From: Aplysia californica
Lineage: Eukaryota
DNA length: 64,000 nucleotides
NCBI RefSeq assembly: GCF_000002075.1
Contig: NW_004797749.1
Coordinates: 245,407 to 309,406 of the forward strand
Direction of reading: 5' to 3'
Shown here: in pieces, positions 12,891-56,500 of the stretch
Layout: each line of letters opens with the position of its first letter
Position numbering within the stretch: the first letter of the stretch is position 1
Position numbers and translations under genes: made by a program
The notes under the pieces: model-generated
What the model was told of the DNA's origin: nothing
Databases searched by the model: none
What the model saw: only the letters and a program-made list of their open reading frames with translations

Positions 12891-14958
12891 TATAGACTTG
12901 TACTCCTGGACCACGCACTGTCATGGCCCCCGTTATTTGCTCAACCCCACCCCTTAACCCTCCCCCTCCCCAATCAATAAAAGCAAAATATAAAAAAAAA
13001 CAATAGCCCAAGTTGACAACAACAACAAAAAGAAAGCAAAACAAACCCCCAATCCCCCCCCCCCTCCCCCCGCCCTCTCTGCTGGCGACGAATACAGACA
13101 AAGGAAGTCATTTCGAAAGCAGAAAACTACACCCCCCCTTCCCCCCTTCGTAAAGTGCGGGGGAAGTGAATCTTTACAAACATGACCTATCAACAGGGAC
13201 GGAAGGAGGACCCACCAATTCATTACTTTCCTTACAAGAACTTTTTAAATTGGTGCATAATGCGTTTATGGGTAGTTTTTATAAAAGAAATTTCCGCCTT
13301 TTCGAAAATAAGATAAGATAAGATAATACTTCATTATCCCAGAGGGAAATATTTTTGGGCTATACGGGACGGTAAAATAGCATGCAGGAATACATAACAA
13401 ATTTAAATTATATATTTCTCACAAAATGTACATGTCACATCAGATGCACCATTCAACCACATGCAGGGATTCAATTACAAGAGAGCTATTTAGATAGTAG
13501 ATATTATACACACTCGAAAGAGCAATACACATTGATGCTTATTCTGACAATACAAGGTAGTGTTATGCTAGATGTTAATAAAAATTTCTTTTATATCTTT
13601 ACTGTCTTTGTTTTTAGAGGTACATATTATCTGCCGCTACGTGATCTTACAATATGCGTGGAAAGGGGGTGTGATGGGTCGTTTATAATGCTTTTCATCT
13701 TTTTTATTCTTGTGGTGTATACACTGCGACGATGTATTTTAGTGCAATACTAGAAAGTCTTCGCTAGCACACGACTCCCAGCCTTCATTTGTTTTGGTTG
13801 CAAAGTTTAAAATCAAAGCTATCTCTATTCTCACGAGAACATGTAATATAATGAACTGAAGAATCCAAGTTATAATGTTGTTTTTTTGTTGGTATGTTTA
13901 TATATTATTTAATTTTGAAACCATTATGTGGGGTTGGATTGTGTTGAAAGCGGATGAAAATTGGAGCTCAAAACATTGCACTGGTGACTTTGCACTGACA
14001 CACTCAAAACAATCAAAAACACAAGAAATATGGCACAGCTGAAAGACATAAGATTCATATTAAGAAATAGACCGTGTAAAAATTTAGTAAGCGTAAAAAT
14101 ACATAAAAATTATGGAAATCTGCAAAAATGTCATCGCCACTTCGTTATGAATTTTATGTCAAACAAATGGTTTTTGAATGAATTGTATCTGTTCCAAATT
14201 GCAACGTTCAAGTTCACATTTTGTGTGAGACATTCATAAAAGAAGTTGTAAAGTTTTTTTGTTTTTTTTTGGATCACCCTGTAAATGTAAGTATTATTGT
14301 CGTTAACCTTTTACCTCCATTCAAAAGAGACGTAATTATCATACGGAAGTACTGAATCTGCTGGGCGGTCAAGTGGATGATTAGTGGACCTTGGGCTGGC
14401 TGGTTACCGGTTGTTGGCTGGGGATCTATGTGAGAAAATTCGGAAATATTGATAACTTGTGGAAACATTCAAATTTTTGCTAACATATACCCCCAAAGTT
14501 TCGTCAACTGAGTCTCGGGGGTCCATTGCCGTTGGGCTCACTGTTTTAATTTTAAAGATAGATCAAACTACTTACATAGATCCACAGGCCACTTAGACTT
14601 GCCCTTGTGTGACAAATTTCAGACTGTAGCTGTAATATTTTCTATGAAATTCATGAACACTAAGAAACTGGTTTGACATTCCAAAATGACTTCCACAGAG
14701 ACCCGCTTTTCAGCTCCAATCAGCAAATTTACCCTTAGAACATACTATATATATACATGTGAACTTCTTCTTGCACAATTACTCAGCAGTGAATAAAAGT
14801 CATTTGTTTGGAATATTTTTCCAGGAGTGTACGTCTCCCCTTTAAGGGGCATGGTAGACTCTAGGAAGAAATCTTCAAGCGAGAGGGAGGCTCTTTTTCG
14901 ACTCCATTGTCATTATACTCAGAAGCACCTCCACTCATCATCATCATCATCATCATCG

Positions 14959-15012
<54 letters not shown>

Positions 15013-17866
15013 GTACCACAAAGTATGCACACGATTGTTGAAATACTTGTTCCAAAGAACTAGAACTAGTCAGAATAGGGCATTGATATTTGGGGACTGG
15101 AGCTTTAATTCGGACTAATTTGACTATGAAACGACTTCCCAATTGTTTTTTTTAAATCAACTGAAAAGCGTTTCAGCTTTGTTCTAGATAGAAGTAATTG
15201 TCAAAATGCTTGATGTCACAGGCAAATAATATAATGTGATATAAAACAAAATGGCGCAGGAATAATCAACTTGTCGTAATGCAAAGCATCAATTCAAAAC
15301 CTCTTTCATATCGCGGTGTGGCACTCTCCAGTTAAGTATTTTCTCCCTTAGGACCAAATCATGTGACTACGAGGTACGATATATCACAATGGAACTCAAA
15401 TCTTAAAACGCCAGTTCAGTGCAATACACGCCCATCTAACAGATCACCCCATGATGTATGCACGTAAGCACTGCTTCTAGTAAAGCAACATGCTGATTAG
15501 GCACACACTGACCCCTTCTTACCGGATTTCCTACTGACAACAAACGAAAGTTCTTACCTCCGAGGAAAAAGCGTCTTTTCAGATTGTTCTCCTCAGCCGC
15601 ACAGACAGACACTAGCAGGACAGCTCCCACGAGGAGTGCACAGATTTGTTTGGCGTTCTAAAACAGAAGAGGAAACAAACTGATAAAATAAAAGATCACC
15701 AGTGGTTGGCCTGGGATTTATTCATCATAAGATTTAAAAAAAAAAAAAATTAATGAGTGGATGAACAACGCCCACTACCACTCAAAAATAAAAAATAGGC
15801 TCAAGTAAATAAAAGAAATGAAAACGGGAAATATAATTACCTACAGAAAAAGTAAAAGGCAACTTCTTCTGTCCACGCAGAGTGGATTTTTTTCTTTAAA
15901 GAGTGACACGCACGATTTGACAATAATACGAGACAATTTCGAACTTTAGAAGTCTATAGAAATAACACATGTTGAAAACATTGTATGACTAATACGTACC
16001 GGTACTTCAAATCTCAGACGATCTATAACTTTACTGATCAGGACTGCAACTCATATAAACATATTCTGTATAAACATTTACGCACTAGCTGGGCCTCCTT
16101 TCGACGAAAGGAATTATCGATGTATTAACATCAGGTGAAAGTCATTGGCCTACTATACTTACATTCTACTGGAGGGGAGCAATAAATCCGGAGAGATGCA
16201 AAGAATTAGAAGGTTTAGATATAGTGATATATATTGATTCTCTCTTCCGCTTTCGTGGTTGTACACTCCAGAATTTCAAAGGTGTAGAAATAGTGCGCAC
16301 GGCTATTAAACGGAAACCTCACTTGTTTACAATGGTGTCTTAGAGGACGGACTTTCCCAAGATTACATCTAAACGAAACTAATGAAAAACTGAAAATTAA
16401 ACTACTGTGATTTCAGGCTCCTCAATAGAACTGTGCACCCTTTAAATGATTCTGAACCAACATTAATAATTTGGTCAAATTCGAAAGTTAAGAGGGTCCG
16501 AAGTTTTAGGCGGCGAAAGTGACGGACTTTCACAAATATAATATGTATAGATTATGGTATCAATAAATCTAGCCTTTGATTGTTGCCTAGATCTACAGTT
16601 TATTGTACTTCAAAGGATTATTGTGGTGACAAATTTCAAAGGGGGGCTCTCGAGACCTAGAGGTTAAGGTGTTCGCCTCTCATTCAATAGGTCTTGGGTT
16701 CGAATCCGGATAGGGACGGAACATTTTCTGCTTTCACATCCTTTCCTGCTGTCTAGATCTAACTATGTTTTGACATCAACCTCCCCCCCCCCCCTTCCCC
16801 ACTTTTGCCCCCTCCTCTGGGCTCCTGACTCTTTTCTACTTCTACTCCTTCGTTCATTCTTATTGTTGTCTTTCATCCACACGTCTCATCTTCTGGTCGG
16901 AAAAATCTACACATAGCCTTTATGGACAAGGGTGAAAAATCTCGTTAAAGATCCCTTTGTTGTCCAAAATTGATAAGAGTAGGCTTCGGCCGCCGCCTGG
17001 ACAAAATTCAAAATTTCCTACAAATTGAAAATGTTCAGTGTGTCCCGCGCGCTCATATGACCATATGCCGTTACGAGGGCCGTAAAACACTGAACAAAAA
17101 TATAAAATAGTAAAAGAAAAAACAATTAATTAAAAATTCAAAGGTCTTGTAAGATTGGGTATATTTTCCTTAAAGTATTTGCTTTAAAAGAAAGACAGCT
17201 GTTGATGAAGTAACACTAGTAGGGTACATTTCTCGTTGTATTACTTCGTCGTTATAATAGAGCATGCTCGCTGCTTTGCGCAATTGGTCAAGGCTTTGGT
17301 CTGCGTCAGAGAACTGTAGGCTTGACCTGAGGGGGGTTCTGAATTTCCGTGTCCTTCCAAGAGAAAATCTTTAGTTGCCCCACTGTCCTAAAGGGGACCA
17401 AACACCCTGTCCACAAATTTCAATACTTATGTTTTGTGGTGAAGCACTAACATACTGACAAGATTTTCGCTGTCTATGGCCGAGTACCATAACAACCTGG
17501 ATGAAGTGATTGAAATTCGTGTAAAGTACCTTTCTCAAGGACACAACGTCGGGCCTGAAGCTCAACTCCACGAACCCGCAACATCACATTACGAGTATTT
17601 TACCCTAATCCCTTGACTACCAACGCACCGTGTTATCAGATCCAAAAAGGAAAAAAAGAGACGACAATGATAATGTTAGTCTATGTTACCAGGACTTCCT
17701 AAATGTTTCTTTCAGACTACACAATAGACTCAAAATAAAACCCCGAAAGAAATAGTTTTGCCATCGCAGTAATACACGGTTGATCTTCTATGTTTTCTTT
17801 CTAAAAAAAACCCACAACAAAATATTTTGACCTCAGCAATATCACAACAAACTCCAGACTTACCAT
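11815..17866 (-). CDS. Paralog A: small secreted peptide precursor, 78 aa, 4 exons. MNAKQICALLVGAVLLVSVCAAEENNLKRRFFLGDPQPTTGNQPAQGPLIIHLTAQQIQYFRMIITSLLNGGAAPAGK
   Basis: Manual splicing on the minus strand: ATG 17866-17864 then gtaagt; exon 2 15657-15558 (ttttag...G|gtaag, 100 nt); exon 3 14425-14315 (ctcacatag...G|gtaaa, 111 nt); exon 4 11837-11815 (tcttccag...TAA). All phases are compatible. TATA box upstream, AATAAA downstream, and the same layout in B and C. Confidence 0.8.
11900..12888 (+). mobile_element. 5'-truncated L2-clade LINE in intron 3 of paralog A (antisense to the gene)
   Basis: ORF 11891-12661 has L2/CR1 ORF2 C-terminal motifs (WMTENKLKLNDDKTE, SRIDYCNSL, LKELHWL, FKRGLKTHLF) and an (ATT)n tail at 12805-12888. 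The orthologous site in paralog C (about 46045) is empty. Confidence 0.9.
14420..14845. mobile_element. Possible non-autonomous TTAA-type (Kolobok/T2-like) element abutting exon 3 of paralog A
   Basis: Absent from paralog B. The right end reads ...CTCCCCT-TTAA; the left end reads GGGGATC... without the TTAA, so the terminus is incomplete. Confidence 0.35.
14935..15012. repeat. (CAT)n microsatellite in intron 2 of A
   Basis: Direct reading; orthologous to the (GAT)n tract in B. Confidence 0.95.
16084..16552 (+). mobile_element. Helentron/HINE-like non-autonomous insertion in intron 1 of paralog A
   Basis: Starts ACTAG, has an early hairpin CCTTTCG-A-CGAAAGG, ends ...TATAGAT; absent from the homologous intron of B (about 29480). 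Confidence 0.4.
16642..17135 (+). mobile_element. tRNA-derived SINE with Deu/Nin-like central domain (intron 1 of A)
   Basis: A/B boxes (CCTAGAGG; GGTTCGAATCC), TAAAGATCCC...TAAGAGTAGG...CAAAATTC core, tail GCGCTCATATGACC...CCGTAAAAC. Flanked by a TTCAAAGG repeat. Confidence 0.75.
17440..17632 (-). mobile_element. CORE-type SINE in intron 1 of A; orthologous copies in B (27093-27395, 27806-28061) and C (50230-50590)
   Basis: Homologous to the 7755-8117 element; same intronic position in all three paralogs. Confidence 0.65.
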
Positions 17867-17923
17867 TTTGTCTCGTAAGCTGTATCTTGATCGCAAGATG
17901 GCAACACCTCTTTTTTAGGTGGC

Positions 17924-17930
17924 TTTTATA
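17924..17930 (-). promoter_or_regulatory. TATA box of paralog A
   Basis: TATAAAA 64 nt upstream of the ATG, followed about 30 nt later by GCCATCTT (likely start region). Same position in all three paralogs. Confidence 0.75.
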
Positions 17931-18492
17931 GAAAATAATAGCGCTCACGTTGCAGAAAAGTAAACAGGACTGTGAAGCGTTTTTCCGCCTACTCAGGAAT
18001 CCTGACGATGGGTTATAGGAGGGAAAAACGAATAAACAGCACGCACGGTGAGTTGCACAAATATTTCTTCATGTTGGAAACCGAAATAACCCGTTTGTTT
18101 ATTCTTGCTTACTCAGAGCTATACTTTTGTCTCTCACAGGTACAGCTGTCAATACTGCTCATTGTTCAGGTGTCAGGTCTAGAGCAGGCAAAGACGCTTT
18201 TAGTACCCCACTATTTCCTGTTGCCCGTCATCCTGTTTAGCTTGGGTTTTTTTCTAAGTGTGTTAATTGTTGCAAAATTAAGGGAGAGCGGGAAGGCCCC
18301 GGACAGGTCAGTTCTTGCAAACTATTGATCCTACACACTTTGTCACTGATCACATGGAGTGTCATGTGAGGCTTAGAGTGCTGTGTTTTTGCCGCAACAC
18401 TATGCGACACTTTGCATCTCTGCTTAGAAGGAAATTATGTTTTTGATAAGGGTGTAGCTAATTATTCACACATTAGTTTGTAAGGTTTACAC

Positions 18493-20952: not shown

Positions 20953-23219
20953 TTTACTTTACTTTTACTTTTACTTTTTTCTTCCGCTTGTACGGGTGGG
21001 TGTCGCAGGGAGACACAGGCGTCTGTTTGCAGCAGGGCGAGTGGCCTGTAGGAAGGACATCCCGTGAGCTCTGAGGGTGTCTGCCACAGATTCACTCCAT
21101 CGTCGCCTTGGTCTTCCTCTGGCTCTCCATCCAGAATATTTAATGTTGTATGCTCTCAGAGCTGGATGGTTTGAGAGCATCCGCGTGAGGTGTCTGAACC
21201 ACTTGACCTTTTGTTTTTCAATGTGTGGTAGGACTGGTGTTGCTCCTACGGTGTCCCTTATGACTTCATTTTAAATTTTGTCTCTTGTTTTGTTGACCGC
21301 TCTTCTTAAGCATTTCATCTCGTATGTGACCAGTTTCCTCTCAAGGGCTTTTGTTAGGGACCATGTCTGGCACTGATATGTGAGTGTTCGAAGGAAAATG
21401 GCGTTGATGAGCTTCGCCTTGGTGTTTCAGGAGAGGGCCGAGTTGATAGCTGACTGCGTTGGCTCTCTGGCATCTAGTCTCTATTTTTGATCTAATTTTC
21501 CATTTTCTGTGAAAATGCTGCCCAAGTATTTGAATTCTCTGCTTTGTTTTAGTTGGGATCCGCTGATGTTGATATCCACTTGTCTGGTCTCCTGCTAATT
21601 GTCATGACTTCGGTCTTGCTAATACTGATCTTCATGTCATATTTCTCGCAGCTTGCATTTAATTGTTTCACATGCTCCTGTAGCTGGGTCTTGTTGTTCA
21701 TCATTGCCAGGTCGTCTGCAAACATGAGTTCGTTGAGTGCCTCTGTGTCTGGATTGGCCTCCTTTGTCATCTGGTCCATGTAGATCACGAAGAGCATAGG
21801 GGAGATATTGTAGCCCTGTCTGACTCCAGATGTTACTGGAAACCAGTCTGATGTTCCACTGGCAGTGCGGACTGTGCTTCTGCTGTTAGCATATATAGCC
21901 CTGATGTTGTCTAGCAGTTGTCCCTTAATGTCGTACTGCTCTAAGATCTTCCATAGCTTGTTTCTATTTACTCGATCAAAGGCTTTTTCTTGATCCACAA
22001 ATACGAGATGGAGATCTTTGTCGTATTCCAAAGCCCTCTCACACAGTTGTTGGAGTGCGAAGATTGCATCAGTGCACCCTCTTTCTTTTCTAAAACCAAA
22101 CTGGGCGTCACTGAGAAGATGTTCGGCTTTTGCGCGAGTGCGTCGCTCTAGAATCTTTGCATACATGGCTGAGAAGAGATATGTCTCTATAGGTGTAGCA
22201 GTCTTTCTTGCTGCCCCTTTTCTTCCATATTGGTACCACTATCGCATTTTGCCAGTCTGCTGGTACTTTTCTTTCTTTCCATGCTTTCTGGAAGATGATT
22301 GTAAGTCAGTGTATTTCGGTTTCACCGCATGCAAGGATGGCTTCGGTTGTGATGCCATCGTCTCCAACTGCCTTGTTCTTTGGACTAGTCTTCAGTGCTT
22401 CTCTCACTTCACTCTCCAGGATGGTAGGTTCTGAGTGCTCTGGGTAGTTGGCGGTGAAGGGGCACTGTGTGTTTTGTGCCTGTACTCCTGATGGGTTTAG
22501 TAGTTCTTGAAAATATTCTTCCCATCTCTTTATTATTTCTTTCTCTTCGTGTAGAGCTTCTCCATTAGTATCATTGATGACAGTGGTGGGTACAGAGGGT
22601 TCGTCTCTAACTCTCATTGTCTTCACCTTCTTGTAGAACTCTCTTGGTGAGGTCTTGCAGGTGTCACTTAGTTTTCGCCATACTGGGTCCATGACTTTTC
22701 TTTTGATGTTATAACGACTTTCTTGCTGTGTCTTCTTGCAAGTCTATATTTAATGTAGTTATCTTCGTTTCTTGACCTGACCCATACATTATACAGTCTC
22801 TTTTTTTCCTTGATAGCATCCTTATCTTCTTCGTTCCACCAGGCTATTGCTTTTCTGTATTTTCCTCTTGTTTTCTTGGTACCACAGACTTCTTTCATTG
22901 TGTCCAGGAGAGTTGTTTTGAAGGTATCCCAAGCTTCCTCTACGGTCAGTATTGTAGAGTTGATAGAGCCTAGCTTTTCATTTAACGTGCTTCTGATCTG
23001 AGCCTGCACCTGATCATCTCCAAGTTTGTGCATATTTAGTTTCTCTTGCTGTCTTTTATGTTTTTTTGGTTTTCTTTCTTTCTTGGTGGTCAACGTTGTG
23101 ATGATTGGACTGTGGTCTGTGTCCAGGCCTGCATTGGGGATGGCTCTTGAGTCTGTGATTGTTATCCGCATTCGTGATCTCGCTAATATGAAGTCGATCT
23201 GTGATGAGACTCTGATGTT
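20953..23219 (-). mobile_element. 5'-truncated RTE-clade LINE, frameshifted
   Basis: Endonuclease end (QIDFIL...TDH), RT motifs (QFGFR, VDQEKAFDRV, GVRQG, FADD) and RARGRPRRRW; (AAGTA)-type tail; 11-bp TSD AAACAAAGTGC at 20942-20952 and 23220-23230. Absent upstream of C. Confidence 0.92.
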
Positions 23220-24984
23220 AAACAAAGTGCAACACTTGAAATTCTTTTTGGAAAAGAGAATTCAGAGTTACTGATTTTAATATACAGACTTTGTTTCCTT
23301 TAGCTGTTTTGATTTGGATGAGTCATAACGCCTATCAGAACACAATAACTGTCAGGTCATTTGAGCTGGTGGATCTCCGATTTATGCCCCCCTCCACCAG
23401 GACGAAACAGGGAGCCATGACAACCTATAAAATGGTCCATTTTCAAGAAAACACGTGCCTGAATCGAACCACAGTTCATTTCTCAGAAAGAAATAGCGAT
23501 ATTAGCTTAGCAAATAATGCACCTTCGTGAATCTTGTGTTCTCACAAAATCCAGACGTTTACAGACTTGGAAATGAACGTGATAAATACTTTTTATCTTT
23601 CTTTATCGCCGCAAATACTAGCTTGTTATTAGAGGCTCCATGTAGCTCTGTTTTTACAATAATAAGGGGAAATTTCAAGTAAAAACATACACATATGTGC
23701 ACAAAAGCGGACTGGTCTATAGATATGGTTGGCTCACTGTTTTCTACAAATTCCAGCGAGTGTGAATTACACTTTCACACCTCAAACAAAAGGTGGAAGT
23801 ACAGATGTATGCTGTGTCGAAGTTTTGCCTATCAAAAATAATATTATCTGGTACATGAAACACGGTGTCTGACGTCATCTGTCTTTGTCCAAAGTTTCCC
23901 TTACGTTTGACAAAAGTGTCCCGCAGAGAGACCTGCACCAGAAGTGAGCAATGCCCTACCCATAAGAGAAGTTTGGTTTCATTGGTGTTTATATCTGTTT
24001 GGTTATAGAGAACGGGGCAAAAACTTTACCTTCGATTTTCTCAAAACAGCATTTTTTTCTTGATAGCCTCCTTATGCTTAAAAGCGACNNNNNNNNNNNN
24101 NNNNNNNNNNNNNNNNNNNNNNNNNNNNNNNNNNNNNNNNNNNNNNNNNNNNNNNNNNNNNNNNNNNNNNNNNNNNNNNNNNNNNNNNNNNNNNNNNNNN
24201 NNNNNNNNNNNNNNNNNNAAGAAATGACCCAAGTGATAAATTGATAGAAGTAAAACTATGTCATAAAACGAGCTCGTTTATCTATCGTTAGTTGCAGCCT
24301 ATGTAAATTTGATTCAGCTATTACAGCAGTAACAGCGACCTTTAAATCACGCCAGACTTATAAATTGCCAAAGCCTGGTGTATAAATGCGTGCGTGCCTG
24401 ATGAAAGGTAGTGTAACACGCATCTGCATGAATTGATATACTGGGCAGTAAAAGTAAAAAATCGTTGGAGTTTAAAAAAAATTGTGTTCCATTAAAATGT
24501 TATTCTTTAGCCGTTTGGTGATTTTTCTATTTATATTTACAAGGCTTTGTGTTTATTCAATGCTTAAAATGTATGAAGATGTTCTTTGACACCGTCATCT
24601 TACTTTATAACAGAGATTGCGTGAGAACATATTTGACAAAACAGTTTAGTGAGGGATGGAAGATTTATCGCAATTGTACCCTTTTCCACTTCACGAGCCA
24701 AGCCAAGCCACAAAGCGACTGTTTGAAGTTCTTAGCATTGTCATTGACGAAGATTTCTACAACTCATTCATAAAAATCAACCCCTTAACATCTCTTACCA
24801 AAATTTAGGTTAGCTTGTATCCTTCCTAGTGGTGTTTAGCACACACGCGCAATAATGCAATGACTTAGTAAAGAAAGGGAGGCTGTGAGCATGCATGTAC
24901 TCGAAGTCACCCTCTTTGTCTTTTTCTGACACAATTTTCCCAACGAAATAGACACCTTTCCCAGTAATCTCTTTCCCTCCACCC

Positions 24985-51093: not shown

Positions 51094-51100
51094 TTTTATA
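51094..51100 (-). promoter_or_regulatory. TATA box of paralog C
   Basis: TATAAAA 64 nt upstream of ATG|gtaagt; conserved with A and B. Confidence 0.75.
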
Positions 51101-53542: not shown

Positions 53543-56500
53543 TAAGGAATATCATTTCTATAGCGCCCACTACCGTGTAAACACAGCTCTAGGCGCTTTA
53601 CATANNNNNNNNNNNNNNNNNNNNNNNNNNNNNNNNNNNNNNNNNNNNNNNNNNNNNNNNNNNNNNNNNNNNNNNNNNNNNNNNNNNNNNNNNNNNNNNN
53701 NNNNNNNNNNNNNNNNNNNNNNNNNNNNNNNNNNNNNNNNNNNNNCGCGCACGCTTAAATATCGTCAAATGAGCACATATAATAAAATAATATACACAAT
53801 GCAATTCACTAAATACATAAATGGATACCTAGTCATTTGCATAACATTATACTGAACATGAATCTACGGACATAAAAATGAGGTTGTTAAATGTGTCTTT
53901 AAAGATTTTTAAAATTTAGACTCAGATGTTGTATGCCTCAAGGGTTGGGGAAGAGAGTTCCAAACTGATGGAGCAAGGTGGGCAAACGATCTTTCGGCTA
54001 ATTTTTTACCCCTTTTTCTAGGAACTCTTAAAAGATACTGATCGCCTGATCTTAGTGATCTAGATGAAACATAAATCTGGATGAGATCACTAAGATATGA
54101 GGGAGCTTTGTTATTGACACATTTATGACATATTATTGCAATTGTATATGACATTCTGGCTGACACGGGAAGCCAATGCAACGTTGTTAACATGGGAGTA
54201 TTGTGGTCACTCTTCTTTTTCTATAGTACAAGCCTAGCTGCATGATTTTGAAAACGTTGTAACTTGTGAAGAGTGTTGTTTGATAAGTTAGCTAGTAAAG
54301 CATTGCAATAATCGACGCGTGAAAACAAGAAAGATGACACGAGCGTTTTCAACGAGTGTTCATTCAAAAACATAGACATATGACCAATTCTGCGCAATTC
54401 ATAAAATAAAATGGTACATAAATAATTGATATGATGTTCCGTTGACAATTTTGAATCAAAATACACTCCCAGATTTTTTGCTTTATTAGTAAAATACAGT
54501 TTTTCATTTTCAGTACAAATATGACCAATGTCTTCGGGGATATGGCTTTTCTTTGGGTTATATAAAAGAATTTCAGTTTTATTTTCATTAAGCTGGAGCT
54601 TATTATCAACCATCCACTTTTTGACGTCATCAATGCACAGACCTATGGTAGTACGCAAGGTTTTGACATCTGATGGTGGAACAGATTTATATAACTGTAT
54701 CGTCTGCGTACATGTGATAATTCATATTGTGCTTTCTGATCACAGCTCCAAGTGGCTGTGTATACAACGTATACAAGATTGGACCCATAATTGAACCTTG
54801 AGGCACTCCAAAGTCTAGTTTAAAAATTGACGAAACAGAGTCGTGCACAACCACAGATTGTGTACGGCCAATCAGGTAGGACCTGAACCAGTCAAGAACC
54901 CTGCCAGACAGGCCAAACGTGTTGAACAATCGTTCAATAAGAATAGTGGGATTTATAGTGTCAAAGGCAGCACTAAGATCAGGAAGAGAAATAATTGATA
55001 TTTTGTTCTCATCCGCCTCACACAAGAGGTCGTTATATATTTTCAGTAGCGCAGTTTCTGTGTTATGAAATTGCCAATTGGCAGATTGATATAATTGGTA
55101 TAAATTTTTGTTTTCTCTTCAATAGAACCAAAAAAACTTTCTCCATGACTTGTTTTATAAAAAGCGAAGGTTGAAGACAGGTCTGAAATTCTTGAGCTCC
55201 TCCGAGGAAAGATTAGATTTTTTGAGAAGGGGAATAACTAAAGCATACTTAAAGAGTGATGGTACTACCCCACACTGAAGAGACTCATTGATGATGGAAG
55301 TTATAAATCCAATGACACTATCAAGATGTGTGATGAGCAGTGGTGTTGGAATGGGATCAAGACTACATGTTTTATGGGGTGATAACATTAGGATTGATCT
55401 TACGTCTTCTTGTGTTACACGTACAAATTCATTAAAGATTACCCCAGAGATTGTTTCAAAACATGGTAGTTTATGGATAGTCATGTCAATTTTTTTTTCC
55501 TAATCGTGGATATCTTGTCTCTAAAGTATTGACCAAAAACATCAAGAAGGTCACTTTTAGGTACATTCGTGGGAAACTTGTTGCTGGCCGGATCTTTCTT
55601 ACCAGACAACTGATTTGTTATACAAAATAAAGCTTTAGAGGTGGTACATTCATTAATTTTTCCGTTATTATACATGAATTTGGCAGATGTTAATAACAAT
55701 TTCACTATGTTGTTACAATGTCTATAAATGTCCTCATGAATTTTCAGCTTGGTTGATCTCCAGCGTCTTTCAGCTCGTCTACGTTTCATTTTAGATAGTT
55801 TAATTTCCAAAGTCATCCGCGGGGCAGAAGGTCGATCAGTTACTGTTCTGGATTTGACAGGGTGTATGTTTGTTTAGTAGTTCACACATCTTGGTGTTGA
55901 ACGTGTCTACCTTCTCGGAGGTTGAACCGTGTATGAATTTTAGAGCGAATGTCCGCTCCAAACTTTTCATTATCAATGTTCATTTTCCGGGTTGTTATTT
56001 TGCGGTGTCTCAGTTTGGGCTTCCCTATACGAGTTATTTCAAAGGACACCAGAAATGCATTTGTTCTTTACTTTTATTTCACCGATTTTATTGACACTGT
56101 CCGTAATCACCCAATCTAATGTGTGTTTTTTTTATGTGAGTGGGGACATCAATGTGTTGATAGAGACCACGAGTCTCTAGAACAGATTTGATAGATTTAA
56201 CATTAGTGTCTAAGGTATCTTCCAAATGTAAATTAAAGTCCCCTAAAATTATAGGCTATGTCTTCTTGGTGGTGTGTAGGTCGGTCTAGTAAATCCTGGA
56301 ATTCAGTAATGAAATCTGTAATTTTCAGTTTGTTTCTCCTGCTGGGAGGTGGTCGATAGACACAGAAAAAAATGACGGGACACCCTTCGAAATGTAGACT
56401 GATCTCACAACATTCAAAAGTTTTAAAGGAGGGCATTTTCTGTGGAGTGATGTTTAGAGATCCTTTACAAATTACACATATTCCCTCCCCCCCCCCCTCG

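What the first reader, a model, noticed from the sequence alone, without database searches (positions are those of the whole stretch)
14315..14390. Mature-peptide helix of paralog A has diverged faster than its neighbouring intron
Counted by hand: over the last 25 codons of exon 3, A differs from C at 21 of 75 nt with 10 amino-acid changes, whereas B differs from C at 11 of 75 nt. A nearby 93-nt stretch of intron 3 (14161-14253 versus 47702-47794) differs at only about 6 positions. The frame and hydrophobic periodicity are retained (IQYFRMIITSLL versus AQLLRSILAFLL). A conserved signal exon with a hypervariable mature exon is known from toxin and defence-peptide families. Inference: positive selection on A, or conversion homogenising the intron.
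Basis: partly seen in the sequence, partly recalled or inferred. Interest (0 to 1): 0.7.

Follow-up and report, generated by a model that had tools for sequence, protein, structure and literature searches.

The report
Fast-changed helix in sea-hare gene copy
In a cluster of duplicated sea-hare genes for small, predicted secreted proteins, one copy lost the front of its third exon to repeated DNA and changed ten amino acids in a predicted helix that its three sister proteins largely keep, likely through a short burst of selection, though the statistical support is borderline and expression of this copy is not shown.

Summary
The counts are right (A/C 21 of 75 nt, 10 aa; B/C 11; intron 6 of 93). 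The locus is an Aplysia californica cluster: C is LOC101847361, a fourth copy D is LOC101847896; no other relatives were found. The intron control was a low pick (intron 3 overall 10.7%, 5' non-coding 14.8%), and the A/C pair itself gives dN/dS 0.55. The real signal is on A's own branch: 17 of 75 sites, 13 in one 30-nt block (scan p=0.0016 and <1e-4) against 5.7% in non-coding DNA. B, C and D keep the helix (3 of 25 residues differ from D), so it is not a family-wide hypervariable exon. Branch dN/dS is 3.2 (p=0.013, window chosen after the fact), 2.1 for the whole alignable exon (p=0.07), weaker with multi-base mutations. New: A's exon 3 has lost its Pro/Arg/Tyr-rich front; its only in-frame acceptor lies in a transposon-like insert. 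A spliced A transcript was not seen. Best reading (0.4): episodic selection after truncation; rivals are relaxed constraint with a mutation patch (0.3) and a graft from an unseen copy (0.2). Intron conversion alone does not explain it.

The parts
17924..17930 (-). Gene A TATA-like box, shared with B and C
   Evidence: alignment A6
17864..17866 (-). Gene A start codon at the end of exon 1, followed by a GT donor
   Evidence: matches the Met-Asn start of RefSeq proteins of C and D
15558..15657 (-). Gene A exon 2: hydrophobic signal-like stretch, short acidic spacer, Lys-Arg-Arg site
   Evidence: signal function inferred from sequence, no predictor run
14846..14930 (.). High-copy repeat fragment beside the insert, across a TTAA at 14842-14845
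   Evidence: depth 38,000-241,000 in the last two bins of run X2
14420..14841 (-). Moderately repeated, transposon-like insert that stands where C has the front of exon 3; supplies the acceptor AG (14427-14426) and the first 6 nt of A's predicted exon 3
   Evidence: no alignment to B or C here; depth 1,000-2,500 over 14418-14707 against about 130; TTAA then AG at one end; inverted repeat 14413-14434/14571-14592
14315..14425 (-). Gene A predicted exon 3 (111 nt, phase 1-1): short Pro/Gln/Thr/Gly linker and helix; in frame with exons 2 and 4, 78-residue product
   Evidence: splicing not observed
14316..14390 (-). The 25 codons of the finding: 17 of 75 sites changed on A's branch (13.5 non-synonymous, 3.5 synonymous)
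14328..14357 (-). Ten-codon core block: 16 of 30 differ from C, 13 of 30 on A's branch
14161..14253 (.).
11815..11837 (-). Gene A coding part of exon 4, ending Gly-Lys-stop; AATAAA at 11663-11668
29870..29969 (+). Gene B exon 2 (start codon at 26879, repeated at 27592 across a gap)
30723..30845 (+). Gene B exon 3, also lacking the Pro/Arg/Tyr-rich front
32927..32961 (+). Gene B coding part of exon 4, ending Gly-Lys-stop (second copy from about 33712)
48927..49026 (-). Gene C exon 2 (start codon 51034-51036); C = LOC101847361
47847..48110 (-). Gene C exon 3, full length; its acceptor lies in the gap 48111-48272
   Evidence: 100% match to XP_005105637
45961..45983 (-). Gene C coding part of exon 4

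Best explanation
Copy A of an Aplysia gene family for small, predicted secreted proteins lost the front of exon 3 to a transposon-like insert, would be spliced in frame through an acceptor inside that insert, and changed ten residues of a predicted amphipathic helix on its own branch, likely through a short episode of positive selection on the shortened product. Shown: four-exon layout with intact TATA box, start, donors, stop and poly(A) signal; loss of the Pro/Arg/Tyr-rich segment; A-branch excess of changes; conservation of the helix in B, C and D. Inferred: secretion, cleavage at Lys-Arg, amidation at the terminal Gly-Lys, use of the new acceptor, a transposon insertion followed by a deletion as the cause of the truncation, and selection as the cause of the burst. 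The likely working part is the helix acting on membranes or on a partner surface; A has made its non-polar face bulkier (Tyr, Phe, Met, Ile for Leu, Leu, Ser, Ala).
For: 17 of 75 sites on A's branch against 49 of 938 A-unique sites in 5' non-coding DNA; scan over 1,358 three-way columns p=0.0016 for 75 nt and 0 of 10,000 permutations for 13 in 30 nt. 13 non-synonymous changes in 55 sites against the non-coding rate p=2e-5. Codon model with branch lengths shared with exon 2 and the linker: dN/dS on A 3.2, p=0.013; background 0.23; C about 0; p=0.02-0.03 with multi-base changes allowed. A differs from all of B, C and D at 10 of 25 residues, D from B and from C at 3 each. All 8 strongly non-polar positions stay non-polar, no stop, no proline, hydrophobic moment 0.375 against 0.32-0.33; 17 random changes do this in 8.3% of 20,000 trials. 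Helix 107-122 of C is the best-predicted part of the model, pLDDT 63-75. In the block pN (0.48-0.52) is high, and against B exceeds pS (0.32), unlike an old constrained donor. The 27 nt next to the insert carry only 1-2 A-branch changes, against mutagenesis spreading from the insert.
Against: The gene's own synonymous sites do not give significance without a window chosen after seeing the data: 1.7 (p=0.22) for the helix alone, 2.1 (p=0.07) for the whole alignable exon, 1.8-2.0 (p=0.10-0.14) with multi-base changes; three branches and several windows were looked at, uncorrected. The 13.5:3.5 ratio is what neutral changes give (P=0.19), and the 13 block changes fall 5, 4, 4 on codon positions 1, 2, 3 (read). 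Four of the ten changed codons carry two or three differences, the pattern known to mislead branch tests (bioRxiv 10.1101/165969, abstract read). Synonymous sites here run about 1.7 times faster than non-coding sites (my arithmetic), so the intron yardstick overstates the excess; counted as 11 events against 6.9 expected, p=0.09. Expression is not shown: the three listed contigs over A's exon 3 (X1, X2, X4) are unspliced, the polyA run X12 has depth 0 over 14302-14417 (tissue unknown), and no protein for A came up in three searches. Only three DNA sequences, all from one species.
Confidence: 0.4

Rival explanations
1. Relaxed constraint plus a mutation patch: after the insert removed the native acceptor, exon 3 of A was skipped or unimportant (exon 2 joins exon 4 in frame), and one or a few error-prone repair or recombination events put a cluster of changes into 30 nt.
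For: Neutral-looking N:S ratio and flat codon positions; changes run G/C to A/T, GC falls to 0.44 from 0.55-0.57; exon skipping gives an open 41-residue product; the block ends where the site pattern turns from C-unique to B-unique sites, a possible crossover point; no spliced A contig listed.
Against: Plain neutral decay predicts about 4 changes in 75 nt (6.9 with the synonymous scaling), not 17 (p=8e-4), so a special patch must be assumed; no local template for the block in the window; a random patch keeps frame, core and no proline in only 9.6% of trials.
Confidence: 0.3
2. Graft from an unseen, older copy: a 30-60 nt conversion tract brought in the helix of a more distant paralogue or old allele, or conversion homogenised both flanks and spared the block.
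For: The family does recombine: 5' non-coding unique sites A 49, B 49, C 93; 3' end A 4, B 33, C 7 (p=2e-9). Gln, Arg and Ile of the block are kept through synonymous changes; against C pS in the block is 0.70. The genome could not be searched and the window has 21 gaps.
Against: No such donor among 1.84 billion representatives or in the word-indexed searches, which however hold only annotated or called proteins; on A's branch non-synonymous change is not below synonymous change, as an old constrained donor would show; needs two breakpoints 30-60 nt apart.
Confidence: 0.2
3. Conversion of intron 3 alone makes the contrast.
For: Intron 3 is closer between A and C (76 of 709) than the 5' non-coding DNA (251 of 1,700), p=0.009; A and C share the last five codons' derived state against B and D.
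Against: Intron 3 is still 10.7% diverged; 21 of 75 exceeds the unconverted baseline (p=0.003); B and C agree against A at 16 sites, which intron history cannot produce.
Confidence: 0.05
4. Chance fluctuation picked out by eye.
For: An intron-2 window has 23 of 75 in the A/C pair; rates vary along real sequence more than a permutation assumes.
Against: Scan-corrected p=0.0016 and below 1e-4 on the A branch.
Confidence: 0.05

Closest known systems
Aplysia californica LOC101847361 (XP_005105637/8; gene C) and LOC101847896 (XP_005105639; gene D), both 'uncharacterized'
   Same: Same family: C is the window's gene (100% over exon 3), D lies on a contig of the same length. Same signal-like start, Lys-Arg site, linker, helix and Gly-Lys end.
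   Different: A and B have no protein record in the searches; both lack the Pro/Arg/Tyr-rich segment; A's helix differs at 10-12 of 25 residues.
Myticalins (mussel linear cationic antimicrobial peptides; PMC5577615, passages read)
   Same: Conserved signal, cysteine-free cationic region rich in Pro, Arg and Tyr (in C and D), dibasic site, predicted amidation, multigene family with pseudogenes.
   Different: In myticalins the dibasic site follows the mature region and leads to an anionic propeptide, the gene has three exons with the start in exon 2, and the family is confined to Mytiloida. Here Lys-Arg precedes the variable region, the tail is a neutral helix, there are four exons, and no sequence similarity was found.
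Toxin and skin-peptide precursors with a conserved signal, acidic spacer, Lys-Arg and variable mature part (conopeptides, frog temporin-type peptides; recalled, no call)
   Same: Order of signal, acidic spacer and Lys-Arg; tandem copies; one copy changing fast.
   Different: The helix is conserved in three of four copies; the product after Lys-Arg is 48-101 residues and mostly low-complexity; no activity is known.
Kolobok DNA transposons (TTAA target, RR...YY ends; PMC9587614, passages read)
   Same: The insert begins with AG right after TTAA and ends in CC; it is repeated in the genome.
   Different: The exon-side end lacks TTAA (truncation inferred); no transposase and no library comparison, so the family is not assigned.

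Membership tests
Toxin/defence-peptide precursor pattern (conserved signal, hypervariable mature exon; recalled) | Conserved signal exon under purifying selection | tested here: met
   Exon 2 pairwise dN/dS 0.09-0.41; background 0.23
Toxin/defence-peptide precursor pattern (conserved signal, hypervariable mature exon; recalled) | Dibasic processing site before the mature part | tested here: met
   Lys-Arg near the end of exon 2 in all four copies; cleavage itself not tested
Toxin/defence-peptide precursor pattern (conserved signal, hypervariable mature exon; recalled) | The helix is hypervariable across copies | tested here: not met
   D differs from B and from C at 3 of 25 residues; C branch has 0 non-synonymous and 4 synonymous changes; only A departs. 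The segment after Lys-Arg does vary (15-68 residues before the shared Gln-Gly-Pro).
Toxin/defence-peptide precursor pattern (conserved signal, hypervariable mature exon; recalled) | dN/dS significantly above 1 in the mature region | tested here: inconclusive
   A branch 1.7-3.2, p from 0.013 to 0.22 by window and model; pair A/C 0.55
Toxin/defence-peptide precursor pattern (conserved signal, hypervariable mature exon; recalled) | Toxic or antimicrobial activity; expression in a gland, skin or haemocytes | not testable with these tools
   No activity data; no spliced A record listed in 4 of 24 runs laid
Myticalins | Cationic, Pro/Arg/Tyr-rich, cysteine-free central region | tested here: inconclusive
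   Present in short form in C (4 Lys+Arg, 0 acidic in 101 residues) and D (6, 0 in 82); absent from A and B; far below the 10% Arg the paper gives
Myticalins | Lys-Arg followed by an anionic C-terminal propeptide | tested here: not met
   0-1 acidic residues after Lys-Arg in all four copies
Myticalins | Three exons, start codon in exon 2; sequence homology; Mytiloida only | tested here: not met
   Four exons, ATG ends exon 1; no hit outside Aplysia C and D
Kolobok transposons (the insert) | TTAA duplication at both ends, RR...YY termini | tested here: inconclusive
   TTAA then AG at 14845-14840; the other end is CC joined to exon sequence without TTAA
Kolobok transposons (the insert) | Homology to described Kolobok families | not testable with these tools
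   No repeat library and no genome held; multi-copy nature shown by depth

The most novel reading that the evidence does not exclude
A transposon end gave copy A a new in-frame splice acceptor that deleted the cationic Pro/Arg/Tyr segment, and positive selection then rebuilt the remaining helix, making a new short amidated amphipathic peptide out of an undescribed, sea-hare-specific defence or signalling family: a dated, single-locus case of a transposon-triggered change of function.
Probability: 0.2. Interest if true: 0.55.

Novelty: new member of a known kind. Interest (0 to 1): 0.3.

Why it matters
The process (one duplicate of a small secreted protein changing fast after a structural change) is well known; the family is not described in the literature searched, and Aplysia has few known cysteine-free defence or exocrine peptides to my recollection. 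If A is spliced and selected, the locus offers a compact test of whether a transposon-donated acceptor can start a change of function, and points to the helix and to the Pro/Arg/Tyr segment of C and D as candidate bioactive parts. If A is silent, it is an ordinary decaying duplicate with an odd mutation cluster.

Tried and rejected
Genome of the window: none held, so D's DNA, further copies and a donor for the block could not be sought. Homologue searches gave only C and D (only the best 8,000 candidates scored; 31: one hit, D; 38: no candidate for A's own frame); a third protein, P0003, is a near copy of D filed under E. coli. Pfam: nothing at cut-off for 5 queries, one of which (B) was in the wrong frame and was not rescanned. 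ESM Atlas: no feature hit, only short helix matches under the naming bar. Scans of metagenome and prokaryote contigs: 123 and 53 pattern matches, none confirmed. Run search: no RNA holder listed. The lay (4 of 24 runs, 13200-14930 only, so exons 2 and 4 were outside it) was swamped by repeats and most rows were not shown; the higher depth of X1 at 14360-14417 (41 against 3.5 in the next bin) may be a transcript of a sister copy but the piece was not listed, so it is not used. Structure model is poor overall (mean pLDDT 51), so no fold search was run. Complex job on four copies of the C-terminal 35 residues of C: no answer. A local template for the block in the window: best 14 of 18, nothing at 30 nt. 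Assembly error and A/C as two alleles: rejected (11-18% non-coding divergence with B between them). Literature: no paper holds the LOC or XP ids or six short peptide strings; searches listed nothing on this family (listings only). Supplementary tables were not searched and may carry expression data for these ids. Earlier findings of the scan: none.

Full report
What the locus is. Self-comparison of the window shows three copies of one gene: A (minus strand, about 11650-17950), B (plus, about 26800-33900) and C (minus, about 45800-51100). C's exon 3 matches XP_005105637, uncharacterized LOC101847361 of Aplysia californica, at 100%, and a fourth copy D (LOC101847896) is on a contig of the same length but not in the window. 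Each gene has a TATA-like box, an exon 1 ending in ATG, an exon 2 with a signal-like stretch, acidic spacer and Lys-Arg, an exon 3 with a low-complexity linker and a C-terminal helix, and a short exon 4 ending Gly-Lys-stop before AATAAA. Secretion, cleavage and amidation are inferred from these marks. The model of C is disordered except for the signal helix and residues 107-122. No relative outside C and D was found, no Pfam family, and no paper in the library names the ids or peptide strings (supplements not searched).

The observation. All four counts are exact. The intron control is a low pick: 93-nt windows in that block range 3-16 (median 8), intron 3 overall is 76 of 709, the 5' non-coding blocks 251 of 1,700, and the stretch overlaps a high-copy repeat. 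In the A/C pair the 75-nt window is not the most divergent one (an intron-2 window has 23), but its 30-nt core, 14328-14357, is (16 differences, p=0.0002 over 2,814 columns). Contigs of three public runs confirm A's sequence with 0, 2 and 4 differences over 151-197 bases, which also argues against strong allelic variety, on few samples.

Whose change is it. At the 75 sites B and C agree against A 16 times, A and C against B 6 times, A and B against C 4 times, and one site differs in all three. In 938 columns of 5' non-coding DNA the figures are 49, 49, 93 and 14. The A-branch excess survives a scan over 1,358 columns (17 in 75, p=0.0016; 13 in 30, reached by 0 of 10,000 permutations). With D's protein added, A differs from all three sisters at 10 of 25 residues while D differs from B and from C at 3 each. 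So the helix is conserved in the family and A is the outlier; the segment that varies family-wide is the one after Lys-Arg, which is rich in Pro, Arg and Tyr in C and D and missing in A and B.

Selection. On A's branch there are 13.5 non-synonymous and 3.5 synonymous changes in 55 and 20 sites. A three-sequence codon model gives 3.2 (one-sided p=0.013) for the 25 codons when branch lengths are shared with exon 2 and the linker, 1.7 (p=0.22) for the helix alone, 2.1 (p=0.07) for the 33 alignable codons of exon 3; allowing multi-base changes gives p=0.02-0.03 and 0.10-0.14. The window was chosen after the fact, no correction was applied, and shared branch lengths are doubtful in a recombining family. 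B's apparent 1.1-1.3 is inflated, since four of its seven non-synonymous sites match D's residues and so belong to the segment shared by A and C. Four of A's ten changed codons carry several differences, the pattern that Venkat, Hahn and Thornton show to mislead such tests (10.1101/165969; abstract and outline seen). For continued constraint: no stop, no proline, all eight core positions non-polar, which 17 random changes achieve in 8.3% of 20,000 trials; this test was also framed after seeing the sequence.

Conversion. The family is mosaic: A sides with B in the 5' half and with C at the 3' end (last 40 nt of intron 3, exon 4 and UTR: unique sites A 4, B 33, C 7; p=2e-9), and only A and C have an alignable intron 3. 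The switch lies between intron 2 and the last five codons of exon 3; without D's DNA it cannot be placed. It lowers the A/C baseline from 14.8% to 10.7% and cannot account for sites at which B and C agree against A.

Upstream of 14419 A does not align with C's exon 3. In its place lie a 420-nt insert (14420-14841) that starts with AG after a TTAA, and a high-copy fragment beyond it. The insert is repeated in the genome (depth 1,000-2,500 over most of it against about 130). Its ends fit Kolobok elements as described in PMC9587614 (passages seen) at one side only, so I infer an insertion followed by a deletion that took the element's last bases, the native acceptor and the Pro/Arg/Tyr segment. 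A pyrimidine-rich AG in the insert's end (14427-14426) would splice in frame and give 78 residues; skipping exon 3 is also in frame and gives 41. Neither was observed: the listed contigs over this exon are unspliced, and the one raw polyA run laid has no read on it, nor reads of the sister copies at 80% likeness, so that sample says little.

How it most likely works. The family makes secreted precursors, cut at Lys-Arg and probably amidated, with an optional cationic Pro/Arg/Tyr segment, a flexible linker and an amphipathic helix that would bind membranes or a partner. It resembles myticalins in composition (PMC5577615; passages seen) but fails their defining layout. A is a truncated, recombinant copy whose helix was rewritten. 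I put episodic selection at 0.4, relaxed constraint with a mutation patch at 0.3, a graft from an unseen copy at 0.2, intron conversion alone and chance at 0.05 each.

Verdict. A real, A-specific burst in an undescribed Aplysia family, with a transposon-like splice change beside it; positive selection plausible but unproven, function and expression unknown. Known kind of process, modest interest (0.3); 0.55 if the transposon-triggered change of function is shown.

Noticed in passing
P0003 (OKV40229.1): A protein filed as E. coli 'hypothetical, partial' on a 391-base contig differs from Aplysia gene D at 2 of 111 residues and runs across D's presumed exon joints: probably sea-hare cDNA contaminating a bacterial assembly.
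   Followed up: no
window 30723-30845: Gene B also lacks the Pro/Arg/Tyr-rich front of exon 3, by a different route (no insert); its three private changes in codons 1-20 of the helix region are all non-synonymous. B has no protein record in the searches.
   Followed up: partly
window 14316-14330 and 47848-47862: A and C share four non-synonymous nucleotide differences in the last five codons of exon 3 where B and D agree at the protein level; they may be part of the same burst, copied between A and C.
   Followed up: partly
window 26783-27348/27496-28061, 32465-33102/33203-33890, 35636-43909, 57761-59409/61148-62796: Near-identical blocks on either side of 100-N gaps (90-99.5%), including B's exon 1 and exon 4: probably two haplotypes assembled in series.
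   Followed up: no
window 14935-15012, 30600-30700 and gap 48111-48272: A (GAT)n tract sits in intron 2 just before exon 3 in A and B, and probably in C's gap; the rearrangements of exon 3's front begin right beside it.
   Followed up: no
window 11882-12658, 21552-23261, 38328-39775, 54224-55118: Broken reverse-transcriptase-like (LINE) reading frames, one inside A's intron 3; identification by eye from the translations.
   Followed up: no
window 14566-14575 (minus strand): A consensus-like GT donor lies inside the insert, in the inner arm of its inverted repeat; it could allow an extra, stop-containing exon in A.
   Followed up: no
exon 2 and exon 3 of C: Synonymous sites on C's branch (11 of 51.5) change about twice as fast as its non-coding sites (93 of 938), so introns understate the neutral rate of these exons.
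   Followed up: partly
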